Program-made: the position numbers and the translations under genes
Shown: one piece after another, positions 5,876 through 60,824 of the stretch
How the letters are laid out: each line of letters opens with the position of its first letter
How positions within the stretch are numbered: position 1 is the first letter of the stretch
Assembly: GCA_964549935.1 (NCBI GenBank)
Contig: CAZJVT010000001.1
Location: forward strand, 91,922 to 155,921
DNA from: an uncultured Candidatus Saccharibacteria bacterium
GTDB taxonomy: Bacteria; Patescibacteriota; Minisyncoccia; UBA6257; 1-14-0-10-44-23
DNA: 64,000 bases
Direction: 5' to 3'
The notes under the pieces: model-generated
Databases searched by the model: none
What the model was told of the DNA's origin: nothing
Seen by the model: the letters and a program-made list of their open reading frames with translations, nothing else

Positions 5876-5965
5876 AGTAGTTAGTAGACAGTAGTCAGTA
5901 GTTAGGCCTTAGAAATAGGGTACCACGGGTTCGGGCCCTCCTGTCTACTGTCTACTAGCCCCTGT

Positions 5966-6322
5966 CTACTGTTTTACGGTGCTCGTGCCGGGGACGATGT
6001 TGATCTGCTGGCCCTTGATAGGCTCCGGCAAGGTCGTCGTCGCGGTCGCGGTCGTGCTGGTTGCCGTGACCGAAGTGTCCGGTGCTACCGGAGACGGGTG
6101 GTAAAAGAGGCTGGCGAGTGCGAGTCCGGCAAAGACAACGATTAAGACGACGGTCAGCCAGTAAAAGGCTCGCTCAAGTCCGCGGCGCTGCTGGTAAAAG
6201 CCGCCACCCCCGCCACCGCCACCCAAAAAGCCCGAGACATCACTGTCGCGCTGCTGGAGGAGGATAAGGATGATAAGAGCAACAGAAACAACGATCTGGG
6301 CGATGATAATAGCTTGCTGCAT
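5966..6322 (-). CDS. secG: Preprotein translocase subunit SecG with a Ser/Thr-rich C-terminal extension
   Basis: Two TM segments flank a Gly-rich loop (FLGGGGGGGGF), typical of SecG. Confidence 0.65.
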   Translation of the reverse strand: MQQAIIIAQIVVSVALIILILLQQRDSDVSGFLGGGGGGGGFYQQRRGLERAFYWLTVVLIVVFAGLALASLFYHPSPVAPDTSVTATSTTATATTTLPEPIKGQQINIVPGTSTVKQ

Positions 6323-7096: not shown

Positions 7097-7116
7097 ATAT
7101 CTCATATATGATATAT
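7097..7116. promoter_or_regulatory. Near-palindromic operator-like site ATATcTCATATATGAtATAT (variant of ATATCATATATGATAT)
   Basis: Read directly; there is one mismatched pair. It is the first of two sites upstream of the HTH-murA gene. Confidence 0.45.
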
Positions 7117-7179
7117 TCCTGGAGGTAGAAAGCAGATTTAGCCCTATTATCAGCAGTTATCCACTTAGAATTACCAGAT

Positions 7180-7199
7180 TTATATCATATATGATATAA
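7180..7199. promoter_or_regulatory. Perfect 20-bp palindrome TTATATCATATATGATATAA (core ATATCATATATGATAT)
   Basis: Read directly. The same 16-bp core recurs at 19244, 37947 and (as a variant) 7097. Confidence 0.5.
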
Positions 7200-7245
7200 T
7201 GTACGAACTATGCCAAAACAAGCAAAAACACCACTTTCACCGTTT

Positions 7246-7379
7246 CCCCGTAGTACAAACTCGGTGTTTGCGCTTTGCGCTAAACATTTCAGAGCCAATT
7301 AAATTTTTCCTGCAATACCTTTTTACCAACATAATTTATTTCTACTTGTCCGAGCCGAGTTTGACTCCAAGGGCAGGCA
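7246..7379 (+). promoter_or_regulatory. Conserved 5' leader upstream of HTH-murA: block1 CCCCGTAGTACAAACTCGGTGTTTGCGCT and block2 CCGAGTTTGACTCCAAGGGCAGGCA
   Basis: Both blocks recur in gene orientation upstream of msrA (38500-38633 on the minus strand). The blocks contain mutually complementary CAAACTCGG/CCGAGTTTG segments. Confidence 0.5.
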
Positions 7380-7385
7380 CGCCAC

Positions 7386-8918
7386 ATGAAAAATACTAAA
7401 ACACCTTTGTCGGCATTTCATTCAAAAATTGGCAAACTGATTGAGGCGTTCCGTGAGCGCGGTGGATTAACGCAAGCTGAGCTCGCGAAGTTGCTCGGCA
7501 CCAGTCAGAGCGCTTTGGCGCGTATGGAGGACGGCGAACAAAACTTTACCGTCGAGACGCTGGAAAAAATCTCCAGTGCTCTCAAGCGCGACTTAGTCAC
7601 GCTTTCAAAAGGCACGGTTGATTTCGAAATTGAGGGCGGACACGCGCTACACGGGAGCGTCGTCACAAAAACTAGCAAAAACGCGGCCGTTGGCTTGCTC
7701 TGTGCGGCGCTGCTCAATCAAAACGCCACGACGCTTAAGAATATGCCGAAGATTGAAGAGGTGAAGCGCCTCATCGAGGTGCTAAAGAGCATCGGTGTCG
7801 CAGTTGAGTGGGTGGGTAATGATCTGGTAATTAATCCGCCGAAGAAATTAGAGCTCGAAAAGATGAACATCGAAGCAGCGATTAAAACTCGCAGCATTAT
7901 TATGTTTATCGGTCCGCTCATTCACCGCTTCAAAGAGTTTTCGTTGCCGCAGGTTGGGGGATGCAAACTTGGGAGTCGCACAGTGCGTCCGCACTTTTTC
8001 GCGCTCGAGAAATTAGGTGTAACTATCGAAGCAAAAAAGGATAGTTATATTGTGAAGCATAAGGGGCTGAAGCCGGCAGAGATTGTTTTATACGAATCCG
8101 GCGACACTGTCACCGAAAATGTTTTGATGGCTGCCGCGCTCATTCCGGGCACGACGACGATTAAGTTTGCCTCGGCAAATTATCAGGTGCAGGACATGTG
8201 TTTCTTTTTGGAATCACTCGGCGTCAAAATCGAGGGGATCGGCACGACGACCCTCGTTGTCCATGGAGTGAAAGAGATAAACAAAAATATTGTTTACTCT
8301 CCGAGCGAGGACCCAATTGAATCGATGTTTTTCATTGCCGCCGCTGCGGTTACGAACTCTTCGATTACCATCAAGCGCTGCCCGATAGACTTTTTGGAGC
8401 TGGAGCTTTTGAAGTTAGAAAAAATGGGTTGGAAGTTTACGCTTTCAAAGCCGTACAAGGCGGCGAACGGCCACACTAACTTGGTAGACATTAAAACAAT
8501 GCCGAGTAAGCTCGTCGCGCTCGAAGAAAAGCTCGAGGCGCGCCCGTATCCGGGTTTAAACATCGACAACCTGCCATTTTTCGCGGTCATTGCCACGCAG
8601 GCTGAAGGAAGGACTCTGATTCACGACTGGGTCTACGAAAAACGCGCTATCTATTATACAGAGCTCGACAAGCTCGGCGCCAACACCGTTTTGGCGGATC
8701 CACACCGTGTATTTATCCAGGGCGCTACACCGCTTCGGGCCGCGCAGGTGGTTTGTCCGCCGGCGCTGCGTCCCGCGACGATTATTTTAATCGGTATGCT
8801 GGCCGCCAAGGGTACAAGTATTTTGCGCAACGTCTACTCAATCAATCGTGGTTACGAGGATTTGGCGAATAGATTGAATGAACTGGGGGCGAAGATAAAA
8901 GTGTTGCGGGAGGAGTAG
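7386..8918 (+). CDS. murA: Fusion of an XRE-family helix-turn-helix domain with UDP-N-acetylglucosamine 1-carboxyvinyltransferase (MurA)
   Basis: N-terminal 75 aa match an XRE HTH (GLTQAELAKLLGTSQSALARME). The remainder aligns to MurA, including the catalytic Cys loop (QVGGCKLGSRTVRPH) and the C-terminal RGYEDLANRLNELGAKI region. Confidence 0.85.
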   Translation: MKNTKTPLSAFHSKIGKLIEAFRERGGLTQAELAKLLGTSQSALARMEDGEQNFTVETLEKISSALKRDLVTLSKGTVDFEIEGGHALHGSVVTKTSKNAAVGLLCAALLNQNATTLKNMPKIEEVKRLIEVLKSIGVAVEWVGNDLVINPPKKLELEKMNIEAAIKTRSIIMFIGPLIHRFKEFSLPQVGGCKLGSRTVRPHFFALEKLGVTIEAKKDSYIVKHKGLKPAEIVLYESGDTVTENVLMAAALIPGTTTIKFASANYQVQDMCFFLESLGVKIEGIGTTTLVVHGVKEINKNIVYSPSEDPIESMFFIAAAAVTNSSITIKRCPIDFLELELLKLEKMGWKFTLSKPYKAANGHTNLVDIKTMPSKLVALEEKLEARPYPGLNIDNLPFFAVIATQAEGRTLIHDWVYEKRAIYYTELDKLGANTVLADPHRVFIQGATPLRAAQVVCPPALRPATIILIGMLAAKGTSILRNVYSINRGYEDLANRLNELGAKIKVLREE

Positions 8919-12469: not shown

Positions 12470-12550
12470 TAGCTCGGAGACAGGAGTCAGTAGTTAGTAA
12501 AAGCAAAATCGGGTATACTCCTAGCTACTAACTTCTATCTCCTGACTACT

Positions 12551-23900: not shown

Positions 23901-24350
23901 ATGGCGAACAATAAAAAACTGCGGACGCCTTGTATGTTTTGCGGTAAAGAGCCCGATCGGGCTAGTTACAAATATTGTAGCAATGCATGCCAGCATGAAT
24001 ACGAATATTCGACTTATATTCGCCGGTGGAAACAAGGCAAAGAGAGCGGACTTCAGGGTCTCGGCATCGTTTCAGGATACGTAAAGCGTTATTTAAGAAG
24101 AAAATTCAACGACAAATGTTGTTTGTGCGGTTGGGATGCAATCCACCCCAAGCTCGGCTACTCGCCATTAGTCGCTGATCATGTCGATGGAGATTGGCGC
24201 AATAACGTCGAAAGCAACCTTCGTCTTATCTGTCCGAATTGCGATTCACTTACTTCTACATACGCCGGGCTTAACCGTGGGAAGGGTAGGGGCAATAGGG
24301 CCTTGAGTAAAAGAGCGAAAGAAGGTAGATTATTGGTTACGGGTAAATAG
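23901..24350 (+). CDS. HNH endonuclease with an N-terminal Cys4 zinc finger
   Basis: CMFCGK...CSNACQHE zinc ribbon, then CCLCGW...ADHVDGDWRNN...NLRLICPNCDS HNH core. Alternative upstream starts are a GTG at 23847 and an ATG at 23871. It ends at the first nucleotide of tRNA-Thr. Confidence 0.6.
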   Translation: MANNKKLRTPCMFCGKEPDRASYKYCSNACQHEYEYSTYIRRWKQGKESGLQGLGIVSGYVKRYLRRKFNDKCCLCGWDAIHPKLGYSPLVADHVDGDWRNNVESNLRLICPNCDSLTSTYAGLNRGKGRGNRALSKRAKEGRLLVTGK

Positions 24351-24423
24351 CCGATATAGTTCAGTGGTAGAACGCTACTTTCGTAAAGTAGAGACGTGAG
24401 TTCGATTCTCACCTTCGGCTCCA
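24350..24423 (+). tRNA. tRNA-Thr (anticodon CGT), CCA encoded
   Basis: D-arm GTTC/GAAC, anticodon stem CTACT/AGTAG with loop TTCGTAA, T-arm GTGAG-TTCGATT-CTCAC. The acceptor stem is imperfect (5 bp plus 2 mismatches at its base). Confidence 0.7.
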
Positions 24424-25154
24424 TGGATATCAACCCAGTACTTCCCAAATTAACCGGCCCTTACGATAAAGGGAATGTGCATGTTATTGCCTATGCCGGC
24501 ACGGGTGGTGATGACGCCAAAGACTGGGCACAGATGCTGCTGACGATGTATGCGCGGTTTAGCGGCGGGCAGGGATGGGGCGTGAGCCAGATCGATGACA
24601 ATGCCATCGAGATTAAAGGAGAGTACGCTTACGGACTTTTGAAAAAAGAGGCCGGAGTTCACAGGCTTGTGCGCATCTCGCCGTTTGATGCAAAGAAGTT
24701 GCGCCACACCTCGTTTGCGCTTATCGAAGTTGTGCCAATCTTGCCGGAGCTCGCGCGCAAATTAAATATTCCGCCGGAGGACTTACGGGTTGAGACGGCA
24801 CGCGCCGGTGGGCCGGGCGGACAGAATGTGAACAAGCGAGAGACTGCGGTTCGAATAGTGCATCTGCCGACCGGAATTGCCGTAACCTGTCGTGAGGAGC
24901 GCGGACAACTACAGAACAAGGAGAAGGCAATGGTCATGCTTAAGAGTAAGCTGCTGCATTTGCAAGACACCTACCAAAAGGCGACGCTCGCTGATTTGCG
25001 TACCCATGCCAAGCCGGACTTTGGCAGTCAGATCCGTTCGTATGTTTTGCATCCGTACAAAATGGTCAAAGATCACCGGACGGGGATTGAAACAGCACGG
25101 GCTGAAGAAGTTCTGAAGGGGAGTCTTGATAAGTTTATCGAGGCCGAGCTGTAG
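24423..25154 (+). CDS. prfB: Peptide chain release factor 2-like protein lacking the N-terminal domain 1 (SPF and GGQ motifs present)
   Basis: Contains RISPFDAKK (SPF tripeptide anticodon motif, RF2-type) and [10 protein letters not shown] (GGQ). It is only about 243 aa. The ATG overlaps the last base of the tRNA-Thr CCA, and no upstream frameshift site is possible. Confidence 0.75.
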
Positions 25155-37966: not shown

Positions 37967-38470
37967 TTAAGCGTTTGGTAACGTGTGGCAAACGCGAGGG
38001 TCGTCGGGATTCTTTTGGAAATACTTTTGGTGGTACTCTTCGGCGCGCCAAAACGCGGTTGCGGCAGTAACCTCGGTGACGATAGGGCGGGGATATTTCT
38101 TAGCTGCAGTTAACTCGGCGATGACTTTTTCGGCCGTCGCTTTTTGTTCGGGGGAGCGATAGAAAATTGCTGAACGGTACTGACTACCGACGTCGGGCCC
38201 CTGACGGTTCATAGTCGTCGGGTCGTGTAAATCGAAAAACGTCCGCGTCAGTTTTTCAAACGAGGTCTTTGTGGGATTGAAGGTGACGTTAACCGCCTCG
38301 GCGTGGCCGGTGTTTTCGTAACAGACCTGCTTGTATGTTGCATTGTCGACGTGCCCGCCGGTGTATCCGACTTCGGTTTCAATAACGCCGGGTTGCGCGC
38401 GGAGAATGTCCTCGACACCCCAAAAACAACCTGCTGCAAATGTTGCTATTTCTGATTTTTCGTTTTTCAT
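37967..38470 (-). CDS. msrA: Peptide methionine sulfoxide reductase MsrA
   Basis: GCFWG active-site motif near the N-terminus. The ORF-track extension to 38518 begins with TTG and covers a conserved non-coding leader block, so the ATG at 38470 is preferred. Confidence 0.88.
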   Translation of the reverse strand: MKNEKSEIATFAAGCFWGVEDILRAQPGVIETEVGYTGGHVDNATYKQVCYENTGHAEAVNVTFNPTKTSFEKLTRTFFDLHDPTTMNRQGPDVGSQYRSAIFYRSPEQKATAEKVIAELTAAKKYPRPIVTEVTAATAFWRAEEYHQKYFQKNPDDPRVCHTLPNA

Positions 38471-38499: not shown

Positions 38500-38633
38500 T
38501 GCCCGCCCAAGGAGTCAAACTCGGCTGCTATCTCTCAAGCGCTATGCTATAGCATAGCAGTGAATATGATATGAGTTATTTTTCTAGTAAAAGTTCAGCG
38601 CTTTAGCGCAAACGCCGAGTTTGTACTACGGGG
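38500..38633 (-). promoter_or_regulatory. Conserved 5' leader upstream of msrA (blocks CCCCGTAGTACAAACTCGGCGTTTGCGCT and CCGAGTTTGACTCCTTGGGCGGGCA), which also encloses a 16-bp perfect palindrome CTATGCTATAGCATAG
   Basis: The two blocks are 27/29 and 22/25 identical to those upstream of murA at 7246-7379. Confidence 0.5.
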
Positions 38634-38650
38634 TAGCAACCTCATTCATA

Positions 38651-49292: not shown

Positions 49293-50837
49293 ATGGCTAC
49301 ACTGAATTGGATCGGGAAAGATGCCGTTGTAAATCATGATAAGGAAGTGCCTTTTAAGCTTATTCAAAAGATACCGGGTAATTCCGTTGGTAAAGAGTCT
49401 AAGAATCTGATCATCCACGGGGACAACCTTGAGGCGCTCAAGGCGTTGATGCCTTTTTACAAAGACAAGATTAAGTGCATTTATATTGATCCTCCATACA
49501 ACACCGGGAGCGAGGAATGGGTCTACAACGATAAAGTCAATTCTCCGAAAATCCACGAATGGATAAAAAAAGTTGTAGGACGAGAAGGCGAAGATCTTAC
49601 ACGACACGATAAATGGCTTTGTATGATGTATCCTCGTCTCAAGCTTCTTCGAGATCTTTTGGCTGAAGACGGGGTGATATTCATATCAATTGACGACAAC
49701 GAGCATTCTAACTTGAAGCTCGTAATGGATGAAATTTTCCAAGCAAAGAATTTTGTCACTAATATTGTCTGGCAAAAATCTTATTCGCCAGTCAATCTAC
49801 GTAAGAATTTTTCTCCTAACCATGATTTCATCATAGTTTATGCGAAGAATATTTCTAGCTTAAAACTTAATCAACTGAGTCGGAGCGAAGAAGCGATCCA
49901 AAGATACAAGAATCCTGACAATGACTCAAGGGGGCCTTGGAAATCAACAGATCTTTCTGTGGGTCCAGCAGTAAAAGAAAATATTTATGAAATCCTTACC
50001 CCAAAAGGGCGGAGTATTTTGCCTCCCAAGGGCAGGAGTTGGGTGTTGAATAAAAAGAGATTTCAGGAATTTTTGAACGACAAGCGTATCTGGTTTGGGG
50101 CAAACGGCAATGCCGTTCCTTCAATTAAGAAATTTCTCTCAGAAGTCAAGCCGGGCGTAACTCCAATGACAGTTTGGACTTATCAAGAGGTCGGGCATAA
50201 TCAAGATGCGAAGCGAGAGGTAAAAGAGATCCTTGAGCAGGAGTCGCCGTTTGAGACGCCGAAACCCTTAGGTTTGCTAAGGCGGATTCTTGAGATAGGC
50301 ACATTGCCGAACGATATCATACTTGATTCTTTTGCTGGTTCTGGTACGACCGGCCAAGCAGTTTTGGGGCTCAATAAGGAGGACGGAGGGAATAGGCAGT
50401 TTATCTTGGTGGAGATGGAAGATAGGATTGCAAAAAGTGTCACAGCTGAAAGAATTAAAAGGGCAATTAAAAAGTACGAATACAAAGCAGGTTTTGAGTT
50501 CTGCGAACTCGCTAAGCCTCTATTCGATGCGCAAGGGCAAATCAATGAGAATTGCTCGTATGATGATCTGGCGACCTATATTTATTTCGCCGAAACTCAA
50601 ACAAATACTGAGAAGAAAAATATCAAGAAGCCATTAATCGGTGAAAGCCAGGGGGTTTTCTACTACCTTCTTTTTGCCGAAAAGGGCAAAAATGATCTTA
50701 CTCGCAGTGCGCTTACGAAACTTAAACTCAAGGGGCAGGCTGTCGTATATGCTGATCGCTGCCTTATTGACGAGGACGAACTTAAGGCGAAAGGAGTTAT
50801 CTTCAAGCAAATCCCATACGAGATAAAAGTTTATTAA
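49293..50837 (+). CDS. mod: Type III restriction-modification Mod-like N6-adenine DNA methyltransferase
   Basis: The DPPY catalytic motif (IYIDPPYNTG) precedes the FxGxG SAM-binding motif (FAGSGTTG), the beta-class order typical of Type III Mod. Confidence 0.8.
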   Translation: MATLNWIGKDAVVNHDKEVPFKLIQKIPGNSVGKESKNLIIHGDNLEALKALMPFYKDKIKCIYIDPPYNTGSEEWVYNDKVNSPKIHEWIKKVVGREGEDLTRHDKWLCMMYPRLKLLRDLLAEDGVIFISIDDNEHSNLKLVMDEIFQAKNFVTNIVWQKSYSPVNLRKNFSPNHDFIIVYAKNISSLKLNQLSRSEEAIQRYKNPDNDSRGPWKSTDLSVGPAVKENIYEILTPKGRSILPPKGRSWVLNKKRFQEFLNDKRIWFGANGNAVPSIKKFLSEVKPGVTPMTVWTYQEVGHNQDAKREVKEILEQESPFETPKPLGLLRRILEIGTLPNDIILDSFAGSGTTGQAVLGLNKEDGGNRQFILVEMEDRIAKSVTAERIKRAIKKYEYKAGFEFCELAKPLFDAQGQINENCSYDDLATYIYFAETQTNTEKKNIKKPLIGESQGVFYYLLFAEKGKNDLTRSALTKLKLKGQAVVYADRCLIDEDELKAKGVIFKQIPYEIKVY

Positions 50838-50841
50838 TTTC

Positions 50842-51417
50842 ATGTTGCAAAAATTATATAAAACCACGAATCCAAGCCTTTTATGGGAGATTCGGGAGAA
50901 CACGGCCGGATACGATTATGTTTATTCGGAGCCATTTTGCTCCAACGATTCATGTCGTGTGCCTTTAGATCAAGCTTATCTTGGGACTAATAAGACAGGT
51001 CAATATATAAGCGGTTGGCTTTGTTCAAATTGCAAAAAAGAATATGAGTGTCCCGGCAATGACTATCAATCATTCGTCCAATCAATCCAGAAAAAATACG
51101 AAGGCTTTATTCGGCAGCGTCATGAAATAATTTCATTAGATTTAATTCCTACAAAAGTAGCTGCTGGTGCCGAGGATGAGCATTTTTGGCTGCGGGCGCG
51201 GATATTAGAAAAAAATGGCAAAAGACAAGCCGTCATTTTCATAGGAGAAAAAATAAAAGGAAAGCAGGAAAAAACCGATTATGCCCAGCTATTTCTTGAC
51301 CTAGAAGATGAGCAGGTTCGTTTCGATAAAAATAATAAAAATCCGATGGGGTTACTTTGTAGGTTGACGGCTGAATTCGAAAATTCAAGTACCGCTCTTT
51401 CTAAGAAGGGTAATTAA
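50842..51417 (+). CDS. Hypothetical Cys-rich (zinc-ribbon-like) protein encoded between mod and res
   Basis: CSNDSC...CSNCKKEYEC four-Cys cluster. It has 5-nt gaps to both neighbours and a low GC like the flanking R-M genes. Confidence 0.5.
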   Translation: MLQKLYKTTNPSLLWEIRENTAGYDYVYSEPFCSNDSCRVPLDQAYLGTNKTGQYISGWLCSNCKKEYECPGNDYQSFVQSIQKKYEGFIRQRHEIISLDLIPTKVAAGAEDEHFWLRARILEKNGKRQAVIFIGEKIKGKQEKTDYAQLFLDLEDEQVRFDKNNKNPMGLLCRLTAEFENSSTALSKKGN

Positions 51418-51422
51418 TAGAT

Positions 51423-53699
51423 ATGAAGCTAAAGAACTATCAGCAAAACGCTATAGATACGCTTGACCAGTTTTTGGTGCAGCTTAAGAAATTGAAGCCT
51501 CGCTATGCTTTCACCGAGGTAACCAACGAGCATTACAACCATGAATGGTTTGGCGATGTGCCGTTTGTCTGTATGCAAATGCCGACTGGTGCTGGTAAAA
51601 CCCTTGTGGCTTGTAAATCAGTCGAGCGGATTATGTCCACTATCCTGCAACACAAGATGGATACAGGCATCGTTATTTGGTTCGTGCCTTCAGATTCCAT
51701 TAAGACGCAGACGCTTAAAAAACTCCGAGACTCCAATGATTGGCACTACGAAATGATCAATGAGGCATTCGAGTCTAAGTTTAAGGTATTTTCTAATGAA
51801 GACGCTCTTTCGATGACGCGCGAGGATGTGCGGAACAATCTTTGCATTATAGTTGCTAGTCTTGATGCTTTCCGGAAGGAGGCCAAGATCCAAAACAAGT
51901 ATAAGGTGTACAAAGAGAATGGTGCATTAATGGATCATTTCCAGAATCTTAAGGATGATTCATCGCTCGAAAAAGATTCTGAGGGTACTGTCATCAACTC
52001 TCTCGCGAACGTTATCCGCAAGAACACTCCGCTGATCGTTATCGATGAGGGTCATCACACCCAAACCGAACTATCAGTGCAGTTTTTGGGCGACTTAAAA
52101 CCATCATTCATTATTGAATTCACGGCGACGCCGCGGGAAGGCAGTAATATCCTGGTGCATACGAACGCCTCCGAACTAAAAATCGAAGAGATGGTTAAGA
52201 TCCCGATCGTACTTGAAAGCCGCACGCAGTGGGAGCAGGTTGTCGCAGACGGTATTGCTAAGCGAGCTGAGCTAGAAAAGCGCGCTAGTAAGCTCAAAGG
52301 AGAGCGCATTCGCCCCATCGCATTGCTACAGGCCCAACCGAAGAGCAAGACAAAGGCAACGGTTACCGTGGAGGCGCTCAAGCAGATGCTTCTTGATAAA
52401 AAGATTCCTGAGGAGCAAATCAAGATTAAAACGTCGGAGCTCGACGAACTCGAGGGGATGGATCTCTTCGATAAGAAGTGTGAGGTGCGCTATATTTTGA
52501 CCGTAAATGCCCTTGCTGAGGGCTGGGACTGCTCTTTTGCTTATGTCCTTATCTCCGTTGCCAATCTTGGTGCTAAAGTTGCCGTTGAGCAAATCATTGG
52601 GCGCGTTATCCGTATGCCGAACGCGAAGCGCAAGGCGGACGAAGCTCTGAACCGTAGCTACGTGTTTGCTTCTGCTGCGAATTTTAATGACGCCGCCAGT
52701 AAAGTAATTAAGGGGCTTGAGGATAACGGATATAGCCGCAGTGATTTTATTGGCGCAGACAAAGAACAAGAATATACTGATCCGTTTGAGACAAAGAAGG
52801 CAATCAAGAAGAAACTCGCGGTGCCCCTGATGGCAATTGGCAAAAACAAGCTTTCATTCGAAGATCTTCTCGGAGAGGATTTTGAGCTCGCAAAGCAGAA
52901 TCCCGATTTTGATTTTCGGTTCCATTACGACCTTGACGGCCAAGCTACGATTGACATTAGCGAGGATAATGAATGGCTACGGGACAAGCAGCTCTCGCTC
53001 CCGTATCAATACCTCGAAGGCAATCATTCGGTCGACGAACTCGTGATGTGGCTTGATAAGAAGCTGCGTTTTCCGATGTTGAAACCGGGAGATAAGATTA
53101 CTTTTATTGCCAAAGCTGTCGATAGCCAAATCCAGAAGCGCCAACTTTCACTCCCTAAGCTGTCTGTTAATCGCTATTTATTTGCCGAACGTCTTTCAGA
53201 TGTAATCAATAATTTACTGGAGAGCTTTACTAAGAAAGCATGCGCCGGCCTTCTTGCGGAAAAGAAATTAATCGTCGCGACTTTCGAGGAATTCCCGTCT
53301 ACTATCGCGCTCAAGTCTCCTGTTCCCAAGGTATTCAATAAAAACCTATATGAGCGAGTTGATGCTATCAATGGAGAGGAACGTGGCTTTGTTGAGCGAA
53401 TTGATTTGGGCGCTCTCGAGAACATTGATTTCTGGGTTCGCAACCGTGAAAAAGTTGACCCCTTTTATATCCAAGGATGGAAGCGAGGTAAATTTTACCC
53501 CGATTTTATTGCGGTTACTAACAAAGGAGCCATTATTGCCTTAGAATGGAAAGGCGAAGATAGATTAGACAATCCAGATACGCTTTACAAAACAGAGATT
53601 GCTGAGAATTGGGCCAAGTTGGGTAAAGGCAAGCTTCACTTTTTCTTGGTTCACAGCAAGAACGTTGATGAGGTTCTAGAAAAAGTCAAAAAACTTTAA
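51423..53699 (+). CDS. res: Type III restriction enzyme Res-like subunit (SF2 helicase plus a C-terminal PD-(D/E)xK nuclease)
   Basis: Walker A MPTGAGKT, DEAH-box VIDEGHH and a C-terminal YPDF...ALEWKG nuclease motif. Confidence 0.8.
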   Translation: MKLKNYQQNAIDTLDQFLVQLKKLKPRYAFTEVTNEHYNHEWFGDVPFVCMQMPTGAGKTLVACKSVERIMSTILQHKMDTGIVIWFVPSDSIKTQTLKKLRDSNDWHYEMINEAFESKFKVFSNEDALSMTREDVRNNLCIIVASLDAFRKEAKIQNKYKVYKENGALMDHFQNLKDDSSLEKDSEGTVINSLANVIRKNTPLIVIDEGHHTQTELSVQFLGDLKPSFIIEFTATPREGSNILVHTNASELKIEEMVKIPIVLESRTQWEQVVADGIAKRAELEKRASKLKGERIRPIALLQAQPKSKTKATVTVEALKQMLLDKKIPEEQIKIKTSELDELEGMDLFDKKCEVRYILTVNALAEGWDCSFAYVLISVANLGAKVAVEQIIGRVIRMPNAKRKADEALNRSYVFASAANFNDAASKVIKGLEDNGYSRSDFIGADKEQEYTDPFETKKAIKKKLAVPLMAIGKNKLSFEDLLGEDFELAKQNPDFDFRFHYDLDGQATIDISEDNEWLRDKQLSLPYQYLEGNHSVDELVMWLDKKLRFPMLKPGDKITFIAKAVDSQIQKRQLSLPKLSVNRYLFAERLSDVINNLLESFTKKACAGLLAEKKLIVATFEEFPSTIALKSPVPKVFNKNLYERVDAINGEERGFVERIDLGALENIDFWVRNREKVDPFYIQGWKRGKFYPDFIAVTNKGAIIALEWKGEDRLDNPDTLYKTEIAENWAKLGKGKLHFFLVHSKNVDEVLEKVKKL

Positions 53700-56888: not shown

Positions 56889-57512
56889 GTGTGTTACTCT
56901 AAAAGTATGAAACGATTTTTTACCATTGCCGCGGTCGTTATCGTCCTTGGTGGAGCGTATCTTTATTTTGCCCAGCCGGTAGTGCCACAGCCGGGCGGTT
57001 CTTTGACTGAAGCACAGGCGCGAGTCATCGCCGAGAACTCCTGTATCAAAGGCGGAGCGGCGCTCGAGGCGGGCCAATATAATGCGGTTACAAAAACCTG
57101 GCGGTATAGTGCGAATTTAAATGCGACGCGGCCCAGTTGTACGCCTGCCTGTGTTGTGAGCGAGGCACAGGGGACGGCGGCCGTCGCATGGGAGTGTACG
57201 GAGGTCAATCAAGCGGATAGTATCGACGGTGATACGGTTATCGTCGCCGGCAAAGTGGTTGCTATTAATCTTGAGCAGGCGATGGTGGACGGGCCGTATC
57301 TGATCACCTTAGAATCTGCGAAAAGTAAAAAGTATACCGTCGCTGTCCCGGCGCGCGGGTTTACGATGTGCGTTGCCAATCAAAGCAATTCAGTTGCTGA
57401 TGTTTCCCAGATTAAAACCGGTGAGCAGTATGAGGTACGGGGAAGCGTGAACGCGAATGGCTACATCATGCCCTGTGAGTCAGCAGATCATTACTTGCGG
57501 TTGGTGCGGTAG
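56889..57512 (+). CDS. Secreted hypothetical protein with several Cys residues
   Basis: ORF with signal peptide. Confidence 0.45.
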   Translation: MCYSKSMKRFFTIAAVVIVLGGAYLYFAQPVVPQPGGSLTEAQARVIAENSCIKGGAALEAGQYNAVTKTWRYSANLNATRPSCTPACVVSEAQGTAAVAWECTEVNQADSIDGDTVIVAGKVVAINLEQAMVDGPYLITLESAKSKKYTVAVPARGFTMCVANQSNSVADVSQIKTGEQYEVRGSVNANGYIMPCESADHYLRLVR

Positions 57513-60689: not shown

Positions 60690-60824
60690 GGCGGTAGAAA
60701 CGGTCCAGTTATTTTGCCTCAATTTAGCTTATTTTGCAACTTTTCTCGTGATATACTGAAGTAAGTTCCGGTTTTGGCGGTTTTCCCGCTGCCTGCTTTC
60801 TACTAACTACTATCTACTATCCCG

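What the first reader, a model, noticed from the sequence alone, without database searches (positions are those of the whole stretch)
7246..7379. Two conserved leader blocks shared by the murA-fusion and msrA 5' regions (second copy at 38500-38633, opposite orientation)
Block 1 (CCCCGTAGTACAAACTCGGYGTTTGCGCT) and block 2 (CCGAGTTTGACTCCWWGGGCRGGCA) appear in the same order and gene orientation about 90 nt apart, directly upstream of two unrelated genes 31 kb apart on opposite strands. Block 1 contains CAAACTCGG and block 2 its complement CCGAGTTTG, so the two can form a long-range stem enclosing the intervening AT-rich segment. No SD is present in either leader. This looks like a shared cis-regulatory RNA structure or protein-binding leader, possibly tied to envelope or oxidative stress. 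The inverted homologous copies could also act as recombination substrates for a 31-kb inversion.
Basis: seen in the sequence. Interest (0 to 1): 0.6.

Follow-up and report, generated by a model that had tools for sequence, protein, structure and literature searches.

The report
Hairpin insertion element splitting gene starts
The two "shared leaders" are copies of a small, previously undescribed hairpin-forming repeat element of Saccharibacteria that has inserted just inside the start of unrelated genes, each of which survives because a second start codon and a re-coded copy of its first codons lie behind the element.

Summary
Both blocks occur exactly twice in the window, at 7246-7379 (+) and 38633-38500 (-). 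The proposed long-range stem is real: with four further copies found in related metagenome genomes, 6 of its 18 pairs show compensatory changes.

The blocks are the ends of a 132-142 bp dispersed insertion element, not a conserved leader. Orthologous murA, msrA, sod and S41-peptidase loci in relatives lack it. One relative carries three copies in 8.6 kb, including one at the 3' end of a pilin gene. There is no Rfam match and no copy in the viral contigs.

Each 5' insertion sits 1-12 codons inside the ancestral coding sequence. The old promoter and ATG now head a short uORF that runs into the element. The real gene restarts 0-29 nt behind the element, in three of the four independent cases with a duplicate of its N-terminal codons that differs mostly at synonymous sites.

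Most likely this is a MITE-like element that turns leaderless genes into genes with a structured leader plus a 5'-terminal uORF. A regulatory role is possible but not shown. How the duplicated starts arise is unresolved and is the most interesting part. The 31-kb segment is not inverted relative to an element-free relative.

The parts
7246..7379 (+). Element copy A (134 nt). P0 5' strand 7246-7250; P1a 7252-7254; P1b 5' strand 7256-7265; P2 hairpin 7266-7273 with 7277-7285; variable interior 7286-7353; P1b 3' strand 7354-7363; P1a 3' 7364-7366; P0 3' strand 7369-7373 (only GGG 7371-7373 pairs in this copy); conserved tail CAGGCA 7374-7379.
   Evidence: (covariance model, 139 bits).
7210..7302 (+). 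Ancestral start of the murA-fusion gene, now a 30-codon uORF. ATG 7210 plus 12 codons (MPKQAKTPLSPF, 7210-7245) abut the element, and the frame then runs into it to a TAA at 7300-7302. The ortholog in L015 starts MPKTKPEARTPFH at the same distance class from the same promoter and operator.
7171..7200 (+). Promoter-like site TTACCA-18-TATAAT. It lies 9 nt upstream of the old ATG (leaderless type) and is overlapped by the 20-bp palindrome 7180-7199.
7386..8918 (+). XRE-HTH/MurA fusion gene as now expressed. Its first 11 codons (7386-7418, MKNTKTPLSAF) are a diverged duplicate of the upstream copy. Only 6 nt (7380-7385) separate the element from this ATG.
38500..38633 (-). Element copy B (134 nt, minus strand). 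P0 5' strand 38633-38629; P1a 38627-38625; P1b 5' strand 38623-38614; P2 38613-38606 with 38601-38593, followed by UUUU (flagged as terminator-like); interior 38592-38526; P1b 3' strand 38525-38516; P1a 3' 38515-38513; P0 3' strand 38510-38506 (GGG 38508-38506); tail CGGGCA 38505-38500.
   Evidence: (152 bits).
38626..38649 (-). Ancestral msrA start, now a 7-codon uORF (ATG 38649; MNEVATP; stop TAG 38628-38626, which is the TAG inside the element's CCCCGTAG). It begins 1 nt after the dgkA stop codon (38653-38651). The ortholog starts MTELATF and overlaps dgkA.
37967..38470 (-). msrA as now expressed (MKNEKSEIATF...). A 29-nt tail (38499-38471) lies between the element and its ATG.

Best explanation
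Both sites are copies of one family of small, non-coding, hairpin-forming insertion elements (MITE-like, 132-142 bp) confined, as far as the searches reached, to a narrow group of Saccharibacteria.

A unit has these parts:
- a conserved 20-nt left end (CCCCGTAGTA + 10 nt);
- a conserved right end of about 26 nt (10 nt + ACTCCWWGGGCRGGCA). The two ends are imperfect inverted repeats and pair as P0/P1;
- a hairpin (P2) directly after the left end;
- a fast-changing interior.

Shown:
- The element is present or absent between close relatives at four loci.
- It sits in the sense orientation at gene boundaries.
- In four independent 5' cases it sits 1-12 codons inside the ancestral coding sequence.
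- The old promoter and ATG are kept upstream as a short uORF.
- A second ATG lies 0-29 nt behind the element, in A, B and C/D followed by a duplicate of the N-terminal codons; in F the ATG itself is the only repeated sequence.

Inferred: these genomes mostly use leaderless mRNAs. The insertion therefore converts a leaderless gene into one whose transcript starts with a 5'-terminal AUG/uORF, continues through a roughly 134-nt folded leader, and reaches the true start only afterwards. Ribosomes loading at the 5'-terminal AUG run into or through the left strand of P0/P1, open the helix, and free the downstream start, which is translational coupling or reinitiation. The helix, and in copies A-C the U-tailed P2, can dampen or condition expression. 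For murA and msrA in this window, the element is thus an acquired structured leader, not an ancestral one.

Not resolved: whether the host now uses it for regulation, and how the duplicated starts are made.
For: Family and structure.
- Six copies from five independent insertions in three genomes: A and B (window), C (L001), and D, E, F (L022).
- All six fold into the same architecture.
- In the terminal helix, 88.9% of cells pair. Six pairs changed on both sides, against 1.4 +/- 1.0 in shuffles (0 of 500 reach it) and 0-1 in the slid controls.
- P2 is a hairpin of different sequence in A-C, D, E and F.
- The interiors of A, B and C are homologous (z = 2.8-7.4) even though the copies lie at different genes and in different genomes.

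Insertion rather than ancestral leader.
- Empty orthologous sites were read in L012, L013, L014, L015, L016, L021, L020 and L024.
- Synteny is kept at every one of these loci except L014, where the gene upstream of msrA differs.
- In L012, dgkA and msrA overlap.

Start duplication.
- The up and down peptides are MPKQAKTPLSPF / MKNTKTPLSAF, MNEVAT / ..SEIAT, and MKNRKDYIAD / MRNRKDYIAD.
- A scan of all held loci for upstream N-terminal duplicates picks out the element loci A and C; its three other hits are an edge self-match, tandem GH130 paralogs in L012 and a probable chance match in L016.

Leaderless context. In A the -10 box lies 9 nt upstream of the up ATG, and in F it lies 4-7 nt upstream.

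Precedents from the literature.
- Bacterial MITEs occur between and inside genes, carry RNA structure motifs and can fuse to ORFs (PMC2229807, abstract).
- 5'-terminal uAUGs bind 70S ribosomes and can affect the downstream cistron (PMC4965119, abstract).

Negative results consistent with this reading: no Rfam family matches, and there are no copies in the viral contigs.
Against: - No transposase or other mobilising enzyme was found near any copy.
- There is no conventional short, fixed-length target duplication. The repeated segments run from 3 to 36 nt and are diverged.
- Copy number is low in the window (2 in 64 kb). A genome-collection scan for one 21-nt pattern found a single exact match.
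- C and D are the same insertion event, yet their ends are 43/46 identical while the adjacent tail is 17/25 and coding DNA about 78%. The ends are therefore kept by selection or by conversion in place, which a dead selfish relic would not show.
- All five independent insertions are in the sense orientation (two-sided p about 0.06).
- Two of the five hit oxidative-stress genes.
- The upstream start copies evolve like coding sequence: 5 of the 6 differences between C-up and D-up are at third codon positions.
Confidence: 0.55

Rival explanations
1. It is a host cis-regulatory RNA (riboswitch-like or protein-binding leader) of an oxidative or envelope-stress regulon, spread to several genes and kept by selection.
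For: - The structure is conserved with covariation.
- All copies are in the sense orientation.
- msrA and sod are among the five targets. murA, the S41 peptidase and pilin are envelope-related.
- The ends are conserved in place, far better than the neighbouring non-coding DNA, in the orthologous pair C/D.
- P2 with a U-tract is scored as terminator-like in B.
Against: - It is absent from all eight orthologous loci read in relatives.
- One copy lies at a gene's 3' end.
- The conserved parts are the helix strands. P2 and the interior, which include the junctions on the interior side of P1, are not conserved, and that is the opposite of known riboswitches.
- The U-tract after P2 is missing in D, E and F.
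- There is no Rfam match.
Confidence: 0.15
2. It is an intervening sequence that is removed, or hopped over by the ribosome, so that translation from the old start continues in frame into the gene. The mechanism could be intron-like RNA removal, translational bypass, or precise DNA excision.
For: - Deleting exactly the conserved element (134, 134 and 133 nt) puts the upstream and downstream ATGs in one open frame in A, B and C. The junction phases are 0, 1 and 2, so chance is about 1/27.
- In D the fused frame is the only one of the three that stays open across the tail (read).
- The helix brings both boundaries together.
- The upstream copy evolves like coding sequence.
Against: - At 134 nt it is far below the size of group I or II introns, and no ribozyme family matches.
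- Copy F fits only if its 3' boundary is moved by 5 nt.
- The open frame across the tails is uninformative in A, B and C.
- Take-off and landing codons do not match.
- A spliced product would carry a pointless tandem N-terminus.
- The predicted fused or single-copy proteins are absent from a collection of 15 billion proteins.
- The empty sites in relatives show no footprint.
Confidence: 0.08
3. It is a start-replacement cassette. The mobile unit is the element plus its tail plus a foreign copy of the target gene's first codons, and it enters the homologous position of the same gene in other lineages by homing-like or att-like recombination. The resident start is left behind as the upstream copy.
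For: - In L022 the upstream copy is 27/29 identical to the start of the empty relative L024. Codons 1-8 of the downstream copy are about 67% identical, while the gene body from codon 9 on is 89% identical.
- The two sod start types seen in empty relatives correspond to the upstream copies (CGC type, L024) and the downstream copies (AGA type, L020).
- On the SOD tree the element-bearing genes are scattered among empty ones.
- From my own knowledge, phage 21 and e14 integrate into E. coli icd and bring a re-coded gene end.
Against: - L001's upstream copy is not of the type of its nearest empty relative.
- The same pattern can arise from one old insertion followed by repeat-mediated deletions. 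L020 reads like upstream codons 1-3 joined to downstream codons 4 onward.
- Copy F duplicates only ATG.
- No recombinase was found.
- Each comparison rests on only about 30 nt.
Confidence: 0.1
4. It is a DNA-level recombination site: an invertible switch flanked by the 10-13 bp inverted repeats, or a substrate for a 31-kb inversion between the two window copies.
For: - Inverted repeats flank a variable 90-bp segment upstream of genes.
- Wobble evidence does not favour one strand (sense G-U in A, B and F; sense A.C in D and F), so a DNA-level palindrome is not excluded.
Against: - P2 is next to the left end in all six copies and in the independent assemblies L010 and L011, so no flipped form has been seen.
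- No promoter-like site is predicted inside the two copies scanned (B and D) or their tails; the only promoter-like site in the scan of the A region lies upstream of the element.
- 90 bp is very short for invertase synapsis (my own knowledge).
- Gene order from murA to msrA is collinear with the relative that lacks both copies.
- No recombinase gene lies nearby.
Confidence: 0.05

Closest known systems
Bacterial MITEs with RNA-level effects (Correia/NEMIS of Neisseria, ERIC/RU-1, RUP, BOX), as reviewed in PMC2229807
   Same: About 100-170 bp and non-coding. Inverted-repeat ends fold into a long hairpin in transcripts. Copies are dispersed and differ in presence between relatives. They are found at gene boundaries and sometimes inside genes, and can alter expression of the neighbouring gene.
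   Different: There is no short fixed target duplication (Correia elements duplicate TA; my own knowledge). The paired repeats are subterminal and the outermost nucleotides are asymmetric. Copy number is very low in the window. The interior is not conserved between copies. The insertion is accompanied by a duplicated, diverged gene start. No parent IS is known.
Rickettsia palindromic elements (RPE), covered in a section of PMC2229807
   Same: Palindromic repeats that land inside protein-coding genes without killing them.
   Different: RPEs are translated in frame as part of the protein (my own knowledge). This element is 132-142 nt in the six copies (only D and F are multiples of three) and interrupts translation from the old start in every 5' copy. 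The gene is rescued by a second start instead.
REP/REPIN elements mobilised by RAYT transposases
   Same: A GTAG tetranucleotide next to a palindrome, paired inverted units that form a hairpin, and structural covariation.
   Different: REPs are 20-40 nt units present in tens to hundreds of copies with a RAYT gene (my own knowledge). Here the unit is about 134 nt, few copies are seen, no RAYT is seen, and the GTAG lies in the bubble between P0 and P1.
Integration of phage 21 / e14 into the E. coli icd gene (my own knowledge, not checked here)
   Same: An insertion near a gene end is flanked by two versions of the gene end that differ mostly at synonymous sites, and the gene stays functional.
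   Different: That case is a whole prophage with its own integrase, at the 3' end of one specific gene. Here a 134-nt non-coding element sits at the 5' ends of several different genes.
5'-terminal uAUG/uORF mRNAs and translational coupling (PMC4965119, PMC12548453)
   Same: An AUG at the 5' end binds ribosomes, and translation of a short uORF can influence the downstream cistron. This resembles the mechanism I propose for how the downstream start is reached.
   Different: Those are ordinary leaders in E. coli. They were not created by an insertion element and carry no duplicate of the gene's own N-terminus.

Membership tests
MITE (non-autonomous transposable element) | Several dispersed copies of one short non-coding sequence | tested here: met
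   Six copies from five insertion events in three genomes. No ORF is shared between copies.
MITE (non-autonomous transposable element) | Presence/absence polymorphism at orthologous sites | tested here: met
   Empty msrA, murA, sod and S41-peptidase sites were read in relatives; flanking genes are the same at all but the L014 msrA site.
MITE (non-autonomous transposable element) | Terminal inverted repeats | tested here: inconclusive
   There is a 20-nt imperfect inverted repeat with a 7-nt bubble (CCC-N7-CAAACTCGGY). However, it is offset from the ends: the left end has 1 extra nt and the right end 6.
MITE (non-autonomous transposable element) | Short target-site duplication of fixed length | tested here: not met
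   The flanking repeats are ATG (F), about 9 nt (E), and 16, 29 and 36 nt of coding sequence plus an unrelated tail (B, C/D, A). They are also diverged.
MITE (non-autonomous transposable element) | A parent IS or transposase with matching ends | not testable with these tools
   None is present in the roughly 200 kb held. The complete genomes could not be fetched.
Riboswitch / conserved cis-regulatory leader | Conserved upstream of orthologous genes across species | tested here: not met
   Absent from 3 msrA, 3 murA, 2 sod and 1 S41-peptidase orthologous loci. It is shared only by the sod genes of L001 and L022.
Riboswitch / conserved cis-regulatory leader | Conserved unpaired junction or loop nucleotides with covarying stems | tested here: inconclusive
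   The stems covary. GUAGUA, ACUCC and CRGGCA are conserved in A-E but differ in F. P2 and the interior are not conserved.
Riboswitch / conserved cis-regulatory leader | Match to a curated RNA family | tested here: not met
   Rfam 15 gives no relevant hit even at E <= 10.
Group I / group II self-splicing intron | Catalytic core and minimum size (over about 200 nt and over about 400 nt respectively) | tested here: not met
   The element is 132-142 nt and matches no intron model in Rfam. The size limits are from my own knowledge.
Inverton (invertible promoter) | Both orientations of the segment occur, with a promoter inside | tested here: not met
   The orientation is the same in all six copies and in the two independent assemblies L010 and L011. 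No promoter-like site is predicted within the two copies scanned, B and D, and the one found in the scan of the A region lies upstream of the element. Read-level data are not available.
Integron attC site | RYYYAAC ... GTTRRRY core sites, an array next to an integrase, and a position 3' of cassettes | tested here: not met
   The ends read ..TACAAAC.. and ..GTTTGAC.., which do not fit the cores. There is no array or integrase. The core-site consensus is from my own knowledge.

The most novel reading that the evidence does not exclude
The element is the visible part of a so far undescribed way of inserting DNA into the first codons of leaderless genes without inactivating them. The inserted unit would bring, or create, a replacement start codon plus a synonymously re-coded copy of the N-terminal codons. 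It would then spread between lineages to the same position of the same gene, homing-like. Alternatively, it would be removed in frame from the RNA. Either way both gene starts would be kept under protein-level selection.
Probability: 0.15. Interest if true: 0.85.

Novelty: new variant of a known kind. Interest (0 to 1): 0.5.

Why it matters
Saccharibacteria and other CPR bacteria have tiny, tightly packed genomes and, as this window suggests, largely leaderless translation. That leaves almost no room for mobile DNA or for 5' regulatory RNA.

This element shows one way both can be accommodated. It inserts just behind a leaderless start and restarts the gene behind a folded leader. That creates uORF-plus-hairpin leaders on essential and stress genes (murA, msrA, sod) in a single step, so it is a ready source of new regulation.

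For annotation, it explains odd long "intergenic" gaps and start-codon calls in these genomes.

The duplicated starts, which differ mostly at synonymous sites, may turn out to reflect a specific insertion or homing mechanism. If so, that would be a new kind of mobile-element biology.

Tried and rejected
- Rfam at gathering and at permissive thresholds on all three first copies gave nothing relevant.
- A junction-based pattern scan of the JGI metagenomes returned only 8 chance hits in GC-rich coding DNA.
- Viral contig scans gave no hit for two patterns and, for block 2, only chance coding hits.
- I tested whether the variable interior acts as a guide complementary to the flanks. Duplex energies are no better than shuffles or cross-controls.
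- An internal promoter was not predicted inside B or D or their tails, and the A-region scan found only the upstream promoter. Only copy D has a TATAAT in its tail, read by eye.
- P2 as a general intrinsic terminator does not hold, because the U-tract is present only in A-C.
- I considered fishing for more copies through translated uORFs. Such small ORFs are not in the protein collection.
- Predicted "excised" or "fused" protein variants were looked up and none is on record.
- The truncated MurA calls P0129 and P0130 were checked as possible further insertions. The one looked up, P0130 in L021, is only a start mis-call.
- A custom scan that allows any P1 sequence found no extra copies in the held loci. 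One probable chance hit lies inside a CDS at window 57132.
- attC, bulge-helix-bulge, k-turn, hammerhead and HDV readings were rejected by eye against the conserved nucleotides.
- Strand assignment by G-U wobble is undecided: three cases favour the sense strand and two the antisense strand.
- The claim of strong in-place selection on the upstream copies was weakened once two allele types were found among empty relatives.

Full report
**1. The observation**

Reading both regions and aligning them shows two near-identical blocks around an unalignable middle. Block 1 occurs only at 7246-7274 (+) and 38633-38605 (-). Block 2 occurs only at 7355-7379 (+) and 38524-38500 (-). This holds even with three mismatches allowed, and none is expected by chance.

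The complementary cores CAAACTCGG and CCGAGTTTG are exactly 90 nt apart in both copies. The downstream genes are an XRE-HTH/MurA fusion (ATG 7386) and MsrA (ATG 38470, minus strand). Both copies fold into the same shape:
- an outer CCC/GGG helix (P0);
- a 3-bp and a 10-bp helix made by the two blocks (P1a and P1b);
- a hairpin (P2) directly after block 1.

**2. Where else it occurs**

No Rfam family matches, at gathering or at permissive thresholds.

One scan of 185,579 species genomes with a 21-nt core found a single locus, in a Candidatus Saccharibacteria MAG (L001). There the element lies in front of a Fe/Mn superoxide dismutase gene. A junction-based scan of the JGI metagenomes gave only chance hits. 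The viral contigs hold no copy.

I then fetched orthologous loci through protein homologs. That route yielded a third genome (L022) with three copies in 8.6 kb:
- D, at the same place in sod as copy C;
- E, a divergent copy that starts in the stop-codon region of the upstream pilin gene;
- F, directly behind the ATG of a PDZ/S41 peptidase gene.

A covariance model and a custom scan found no further copies in the roughly 200 kb held.

**3. It is an insertion, not an ancestral leader**

In the MAG that carries copy C, the msrA ortholog (82% identical) overlaps dgkA by ATGA, so there is no intergenic DNA at all. Its murA ortholog (86%) has the same promoter and the same palindromic operator-like sites, but its ATG follows directly.

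Further empty sites:
- msrA: L013, L014;
- murA: L016, L021;
- sod: L020, L024;
- S41 peptidase: L024.

Flanking gene order is kept in every case except L014, where the gene upstream of msrA is a different one.

**4. Structure**

All six copies fold alike. I aligned only the two ends (A5, five distinct rows). On that alignment 88.9% of cells form standard pairs. Six of the 18 pairs changed on both sides, against 1.4 +/- 1.0 in shuffles (0 of 500 reach the observed value) and 0-1 in the slid controls.

P2 is a hairpin at the same position but with unrelated sequence in the four groups:
- A-C: GUUUGCGC/GCGCURAAC;
- D: GUUGUGC/GCACAAC;
- E: CCGCC/GGCGG;
- F: GGCGC/GCGCC.

Whether it acts as RNA or as DNA is not settled. 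Three variant pairs are G-U in the sense strand (A P1, B P2, F P2). Two are A.C, which would be G-U only in the antisense strand (D and F P1).

The interiors of A, B and C are significantly alignable with one another (z = 2.8-7.4). Those of D, E and F are not alignable with anything.

**5. The unexpected part: split gene starts**

In every 5' case the element lies inside the ancestral coding sequence.

| Copy | Gene | Upstream: old ATG and codons | Behind the element | Ortholog start |
|---|---|---|---|---|
| A | murA fusion | ATG 7210, 9 nt after the TATAAT box, then MPKQAKTPLSPF, then the element | 6 nt later ATG 7386, MKNTKTPLSAFH | L015: MPKTKPEARTPFH |
| B | msrA | ATG 38649, 1 nt after the dgkA stop, then MNEVAT; stop is the TAG inside CCCCGTAG | 29 nt later MKNEKSEIATF | L012: MTELATF |
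| C | sod (L001) | MKNRKDYIAD | 25 nt later MRNRKDYIADKN | see note below |
| D | sod (L022) | MKNRKDYSAD | 25 nt later MRNRKDYIADKN | see note below |
| F | S41 peptidase | ATG, then the element | ATG directly after GGGC | - |

Note on sod: the N-terminus MKNRKDY(I/V/L)AD is conserved in about a hundred orthologs.

A scan of all held loci for upstream duplicates of a gene's N-terminus picks out the element loci A and C; its three other hits are an edge self-match, tandem GH130 paralogs in L012 and a probable chance match in L016.

The two copies differ mainly at synonymous positions. By my own count from the sequences, there are about 18 synonymous and 6 non-synonymous differences overall, and 9 to 1 in copy C.

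This genome hardly uses Shine-Dalgarno sequences. Most ATGs are preceded at 6-12 nt by a -10-like box, the leaderless type. The old start is therefore very probably still the 5' end of the transcript. That last step is an inference.

**6. How old, and how the duplicates arose**

C and D are one event. They share the same junction (29 nt after the ATG), tails of the same length that are 17/25 identical, the K2R change in both downstream copies, and CGC against AGA at codon 4.

Since the two lineages separated, conservation has been very uneven:
- coding DNA is about 78% identical;
- the element ends are 43/46 identical;
- the interiors, including P2, are unalignable (z = -0.1).

The ends are thus kept in place by selection or by conversion between copies, and the interior was probably swapped.

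On a neighbour-joining tree of SOD, the two element-bearing genes fall in different clades, each next to empty relatives.

The start of the empty relative L024 is 27/29 identical to D's upstream copy, while D's downstream codons 1-8 are only about 67% identical to it. The start of the empty relative L020 reads like C's upstream codons 1-3 joined to C's downstream codons 4 onward.

Two histories fit these data. One is a single old insertion followed by several deletions between the direct repeats. The other is spread of element + tail + foreign start into resident genes. With only about 30 nt per comparison I cannot decide between them.

Five of the six differences between the two upstream copies (C against D) are at third codon positions. 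My binomial estimate is p about 0.02. This suggests that the upstream copy is translated and constrained, or is repeatedly refreshed by recombination with empty alleles.

**7. The frame coincidence**

Removing exactly the conserved element (134, 134 and 133 nt) places both ATGs in one open frame in A, B and C. The junction phases are 0, 1 and 2, so chance is about 1/27.

F obeys the rule only if its 3' end is set 5 nt earlier. The open frame across the tails is uninformative in A-C; in D it is the only open frame of the three. No fused or single-copy protein variant is on record.

I treat an intron-like, bypass or excision reading as possible but weak. The element is too small for known self-splicing introns, and no ribozyme model matches.

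**8. Other ideas tested**

- The interior is not complementary to the flanks.
- No promoter is predicted inside copy B or D or their tails. The only promoter-like site in the scan of the A region lies upstream of the element.
- P2 with a U-tract is terminator-like in B, but D, E and F have no U-tract.
- No transposase or recombinase gene is in the window.
- The 31-kb segment between the two window copies has the same gene order and orientation as in the relative that lacks both copies. No inversion is evident.

**9. Verdict**

The finding is real, and the stem is real. But the blocks are the ends of a lineage-restricted, MITE-like hairpin element. It has inserted into the first codons of murA and msrA, and elsewhere into sod, an S41 peptidase gene and a pilin gene end. 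It is not an ancestral shared leader.

Its most probable effect is to replace a leaderless start by a 5'-terminal uORF, a folded leader of about 134 nt, and a re-created start. Expression of the gene would then be coupled to translation of the uORF. This mechanism is inferred, by analogy with 5'-uAUG mRNAs (PMC4965119) and with the RNA effects of MITEs (PMC2229807).

An adopted stress-regulatory role cannot be excluded, because two of the five targets are msrA and sod, all copies are in the sense orientation, and the ends are conserved in place.

The diverged, duplicated starts are not explained by any known MITE mechanism and deserve follow-up.

Noticed in passing
window 7180-7199 and 7097-7116; L015 9876-9897 and 9964-9985; L016 about 8030-8050; L021 about 6058-6078: A perfect 20-bp palindrome, TTATATCATATATGATATAA, overlaps the -10 box of the HTH-MurA gene, and a second near-palindrome lies about 80 bp upstream. 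The pair is conserved in front of the orthologs in three other genomes. It is a likely auto-operator for the XRE-HTH domain fused to MurA.
   Followed up: partly
window, upstream of most genes, e.g. 5876-5905 (-), 12521-12550, 60795-60824: The genome almost never uses Shine-Dalgarno sequences. Start codons are preceded either by a -10-like TAnnnT box at 6-12 nt (leaderless type) or by CTACT/ACTACT-rich leaders, which may be a lineage-specific initiation signal.
   Followed up: partly
L021 5953-6055: An unrelated hairpin element with a perfect 26-bp inverted repeat (GCCACCCCACCCTGCGGCCTGGCCAG ... CTGGCCAGGCCGCAGGGTGGGGTGGC) sits upstream of the murA promoter in another relative. These genomes therefore carry more than one family of palindromic insertions.
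   Followed up: no
L022 3562-3570 and 3700-3708: The right flank of copy E repeats the element's own left end, CCCGGTAGT. The first repeat supplies the last codons and the stop codon of the pilin gene. The second can pair with the P0 3' strand (ACCGGG-CAGG-CCCGGT) and was flagged as terminator-like. It could be a circle or tandem junction, a 9-bp target duplication, or an alternative pairing partner.
   Followed up: partly
L022 3976-4000: The tail behind copy D contains a perfect TATAAT 6 nt upstream of the downstream sod ATG. In that genome the restarted gene may therefore have its own leaderless promoter. The orthologous tail in L001 lacks it.
   Followed up: no
window 49293-53699: A type III restriction-modification pair: an N6/N4 DNA methylase and a ResIII helicase-nuclease, with a small ORF of unknown function between them.
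   Followed up: no
window 24350-25154: An ORF with RF-1 and partial PCRF domains lacks about 90 N-terminal profile positions. Its longest reading frame starts inside tRNA-Thr (24350-24423). It may be a shortened release-factor paralog or a mis-started prfB.
   Followed up: no
window 57132-57290: The custom scan produced a weak element-like hit inside a coding region (CCCAGTTGTAC... with a 9/10 complementary partner 139 nt downstream). It is probably chance.
   Followed up: no
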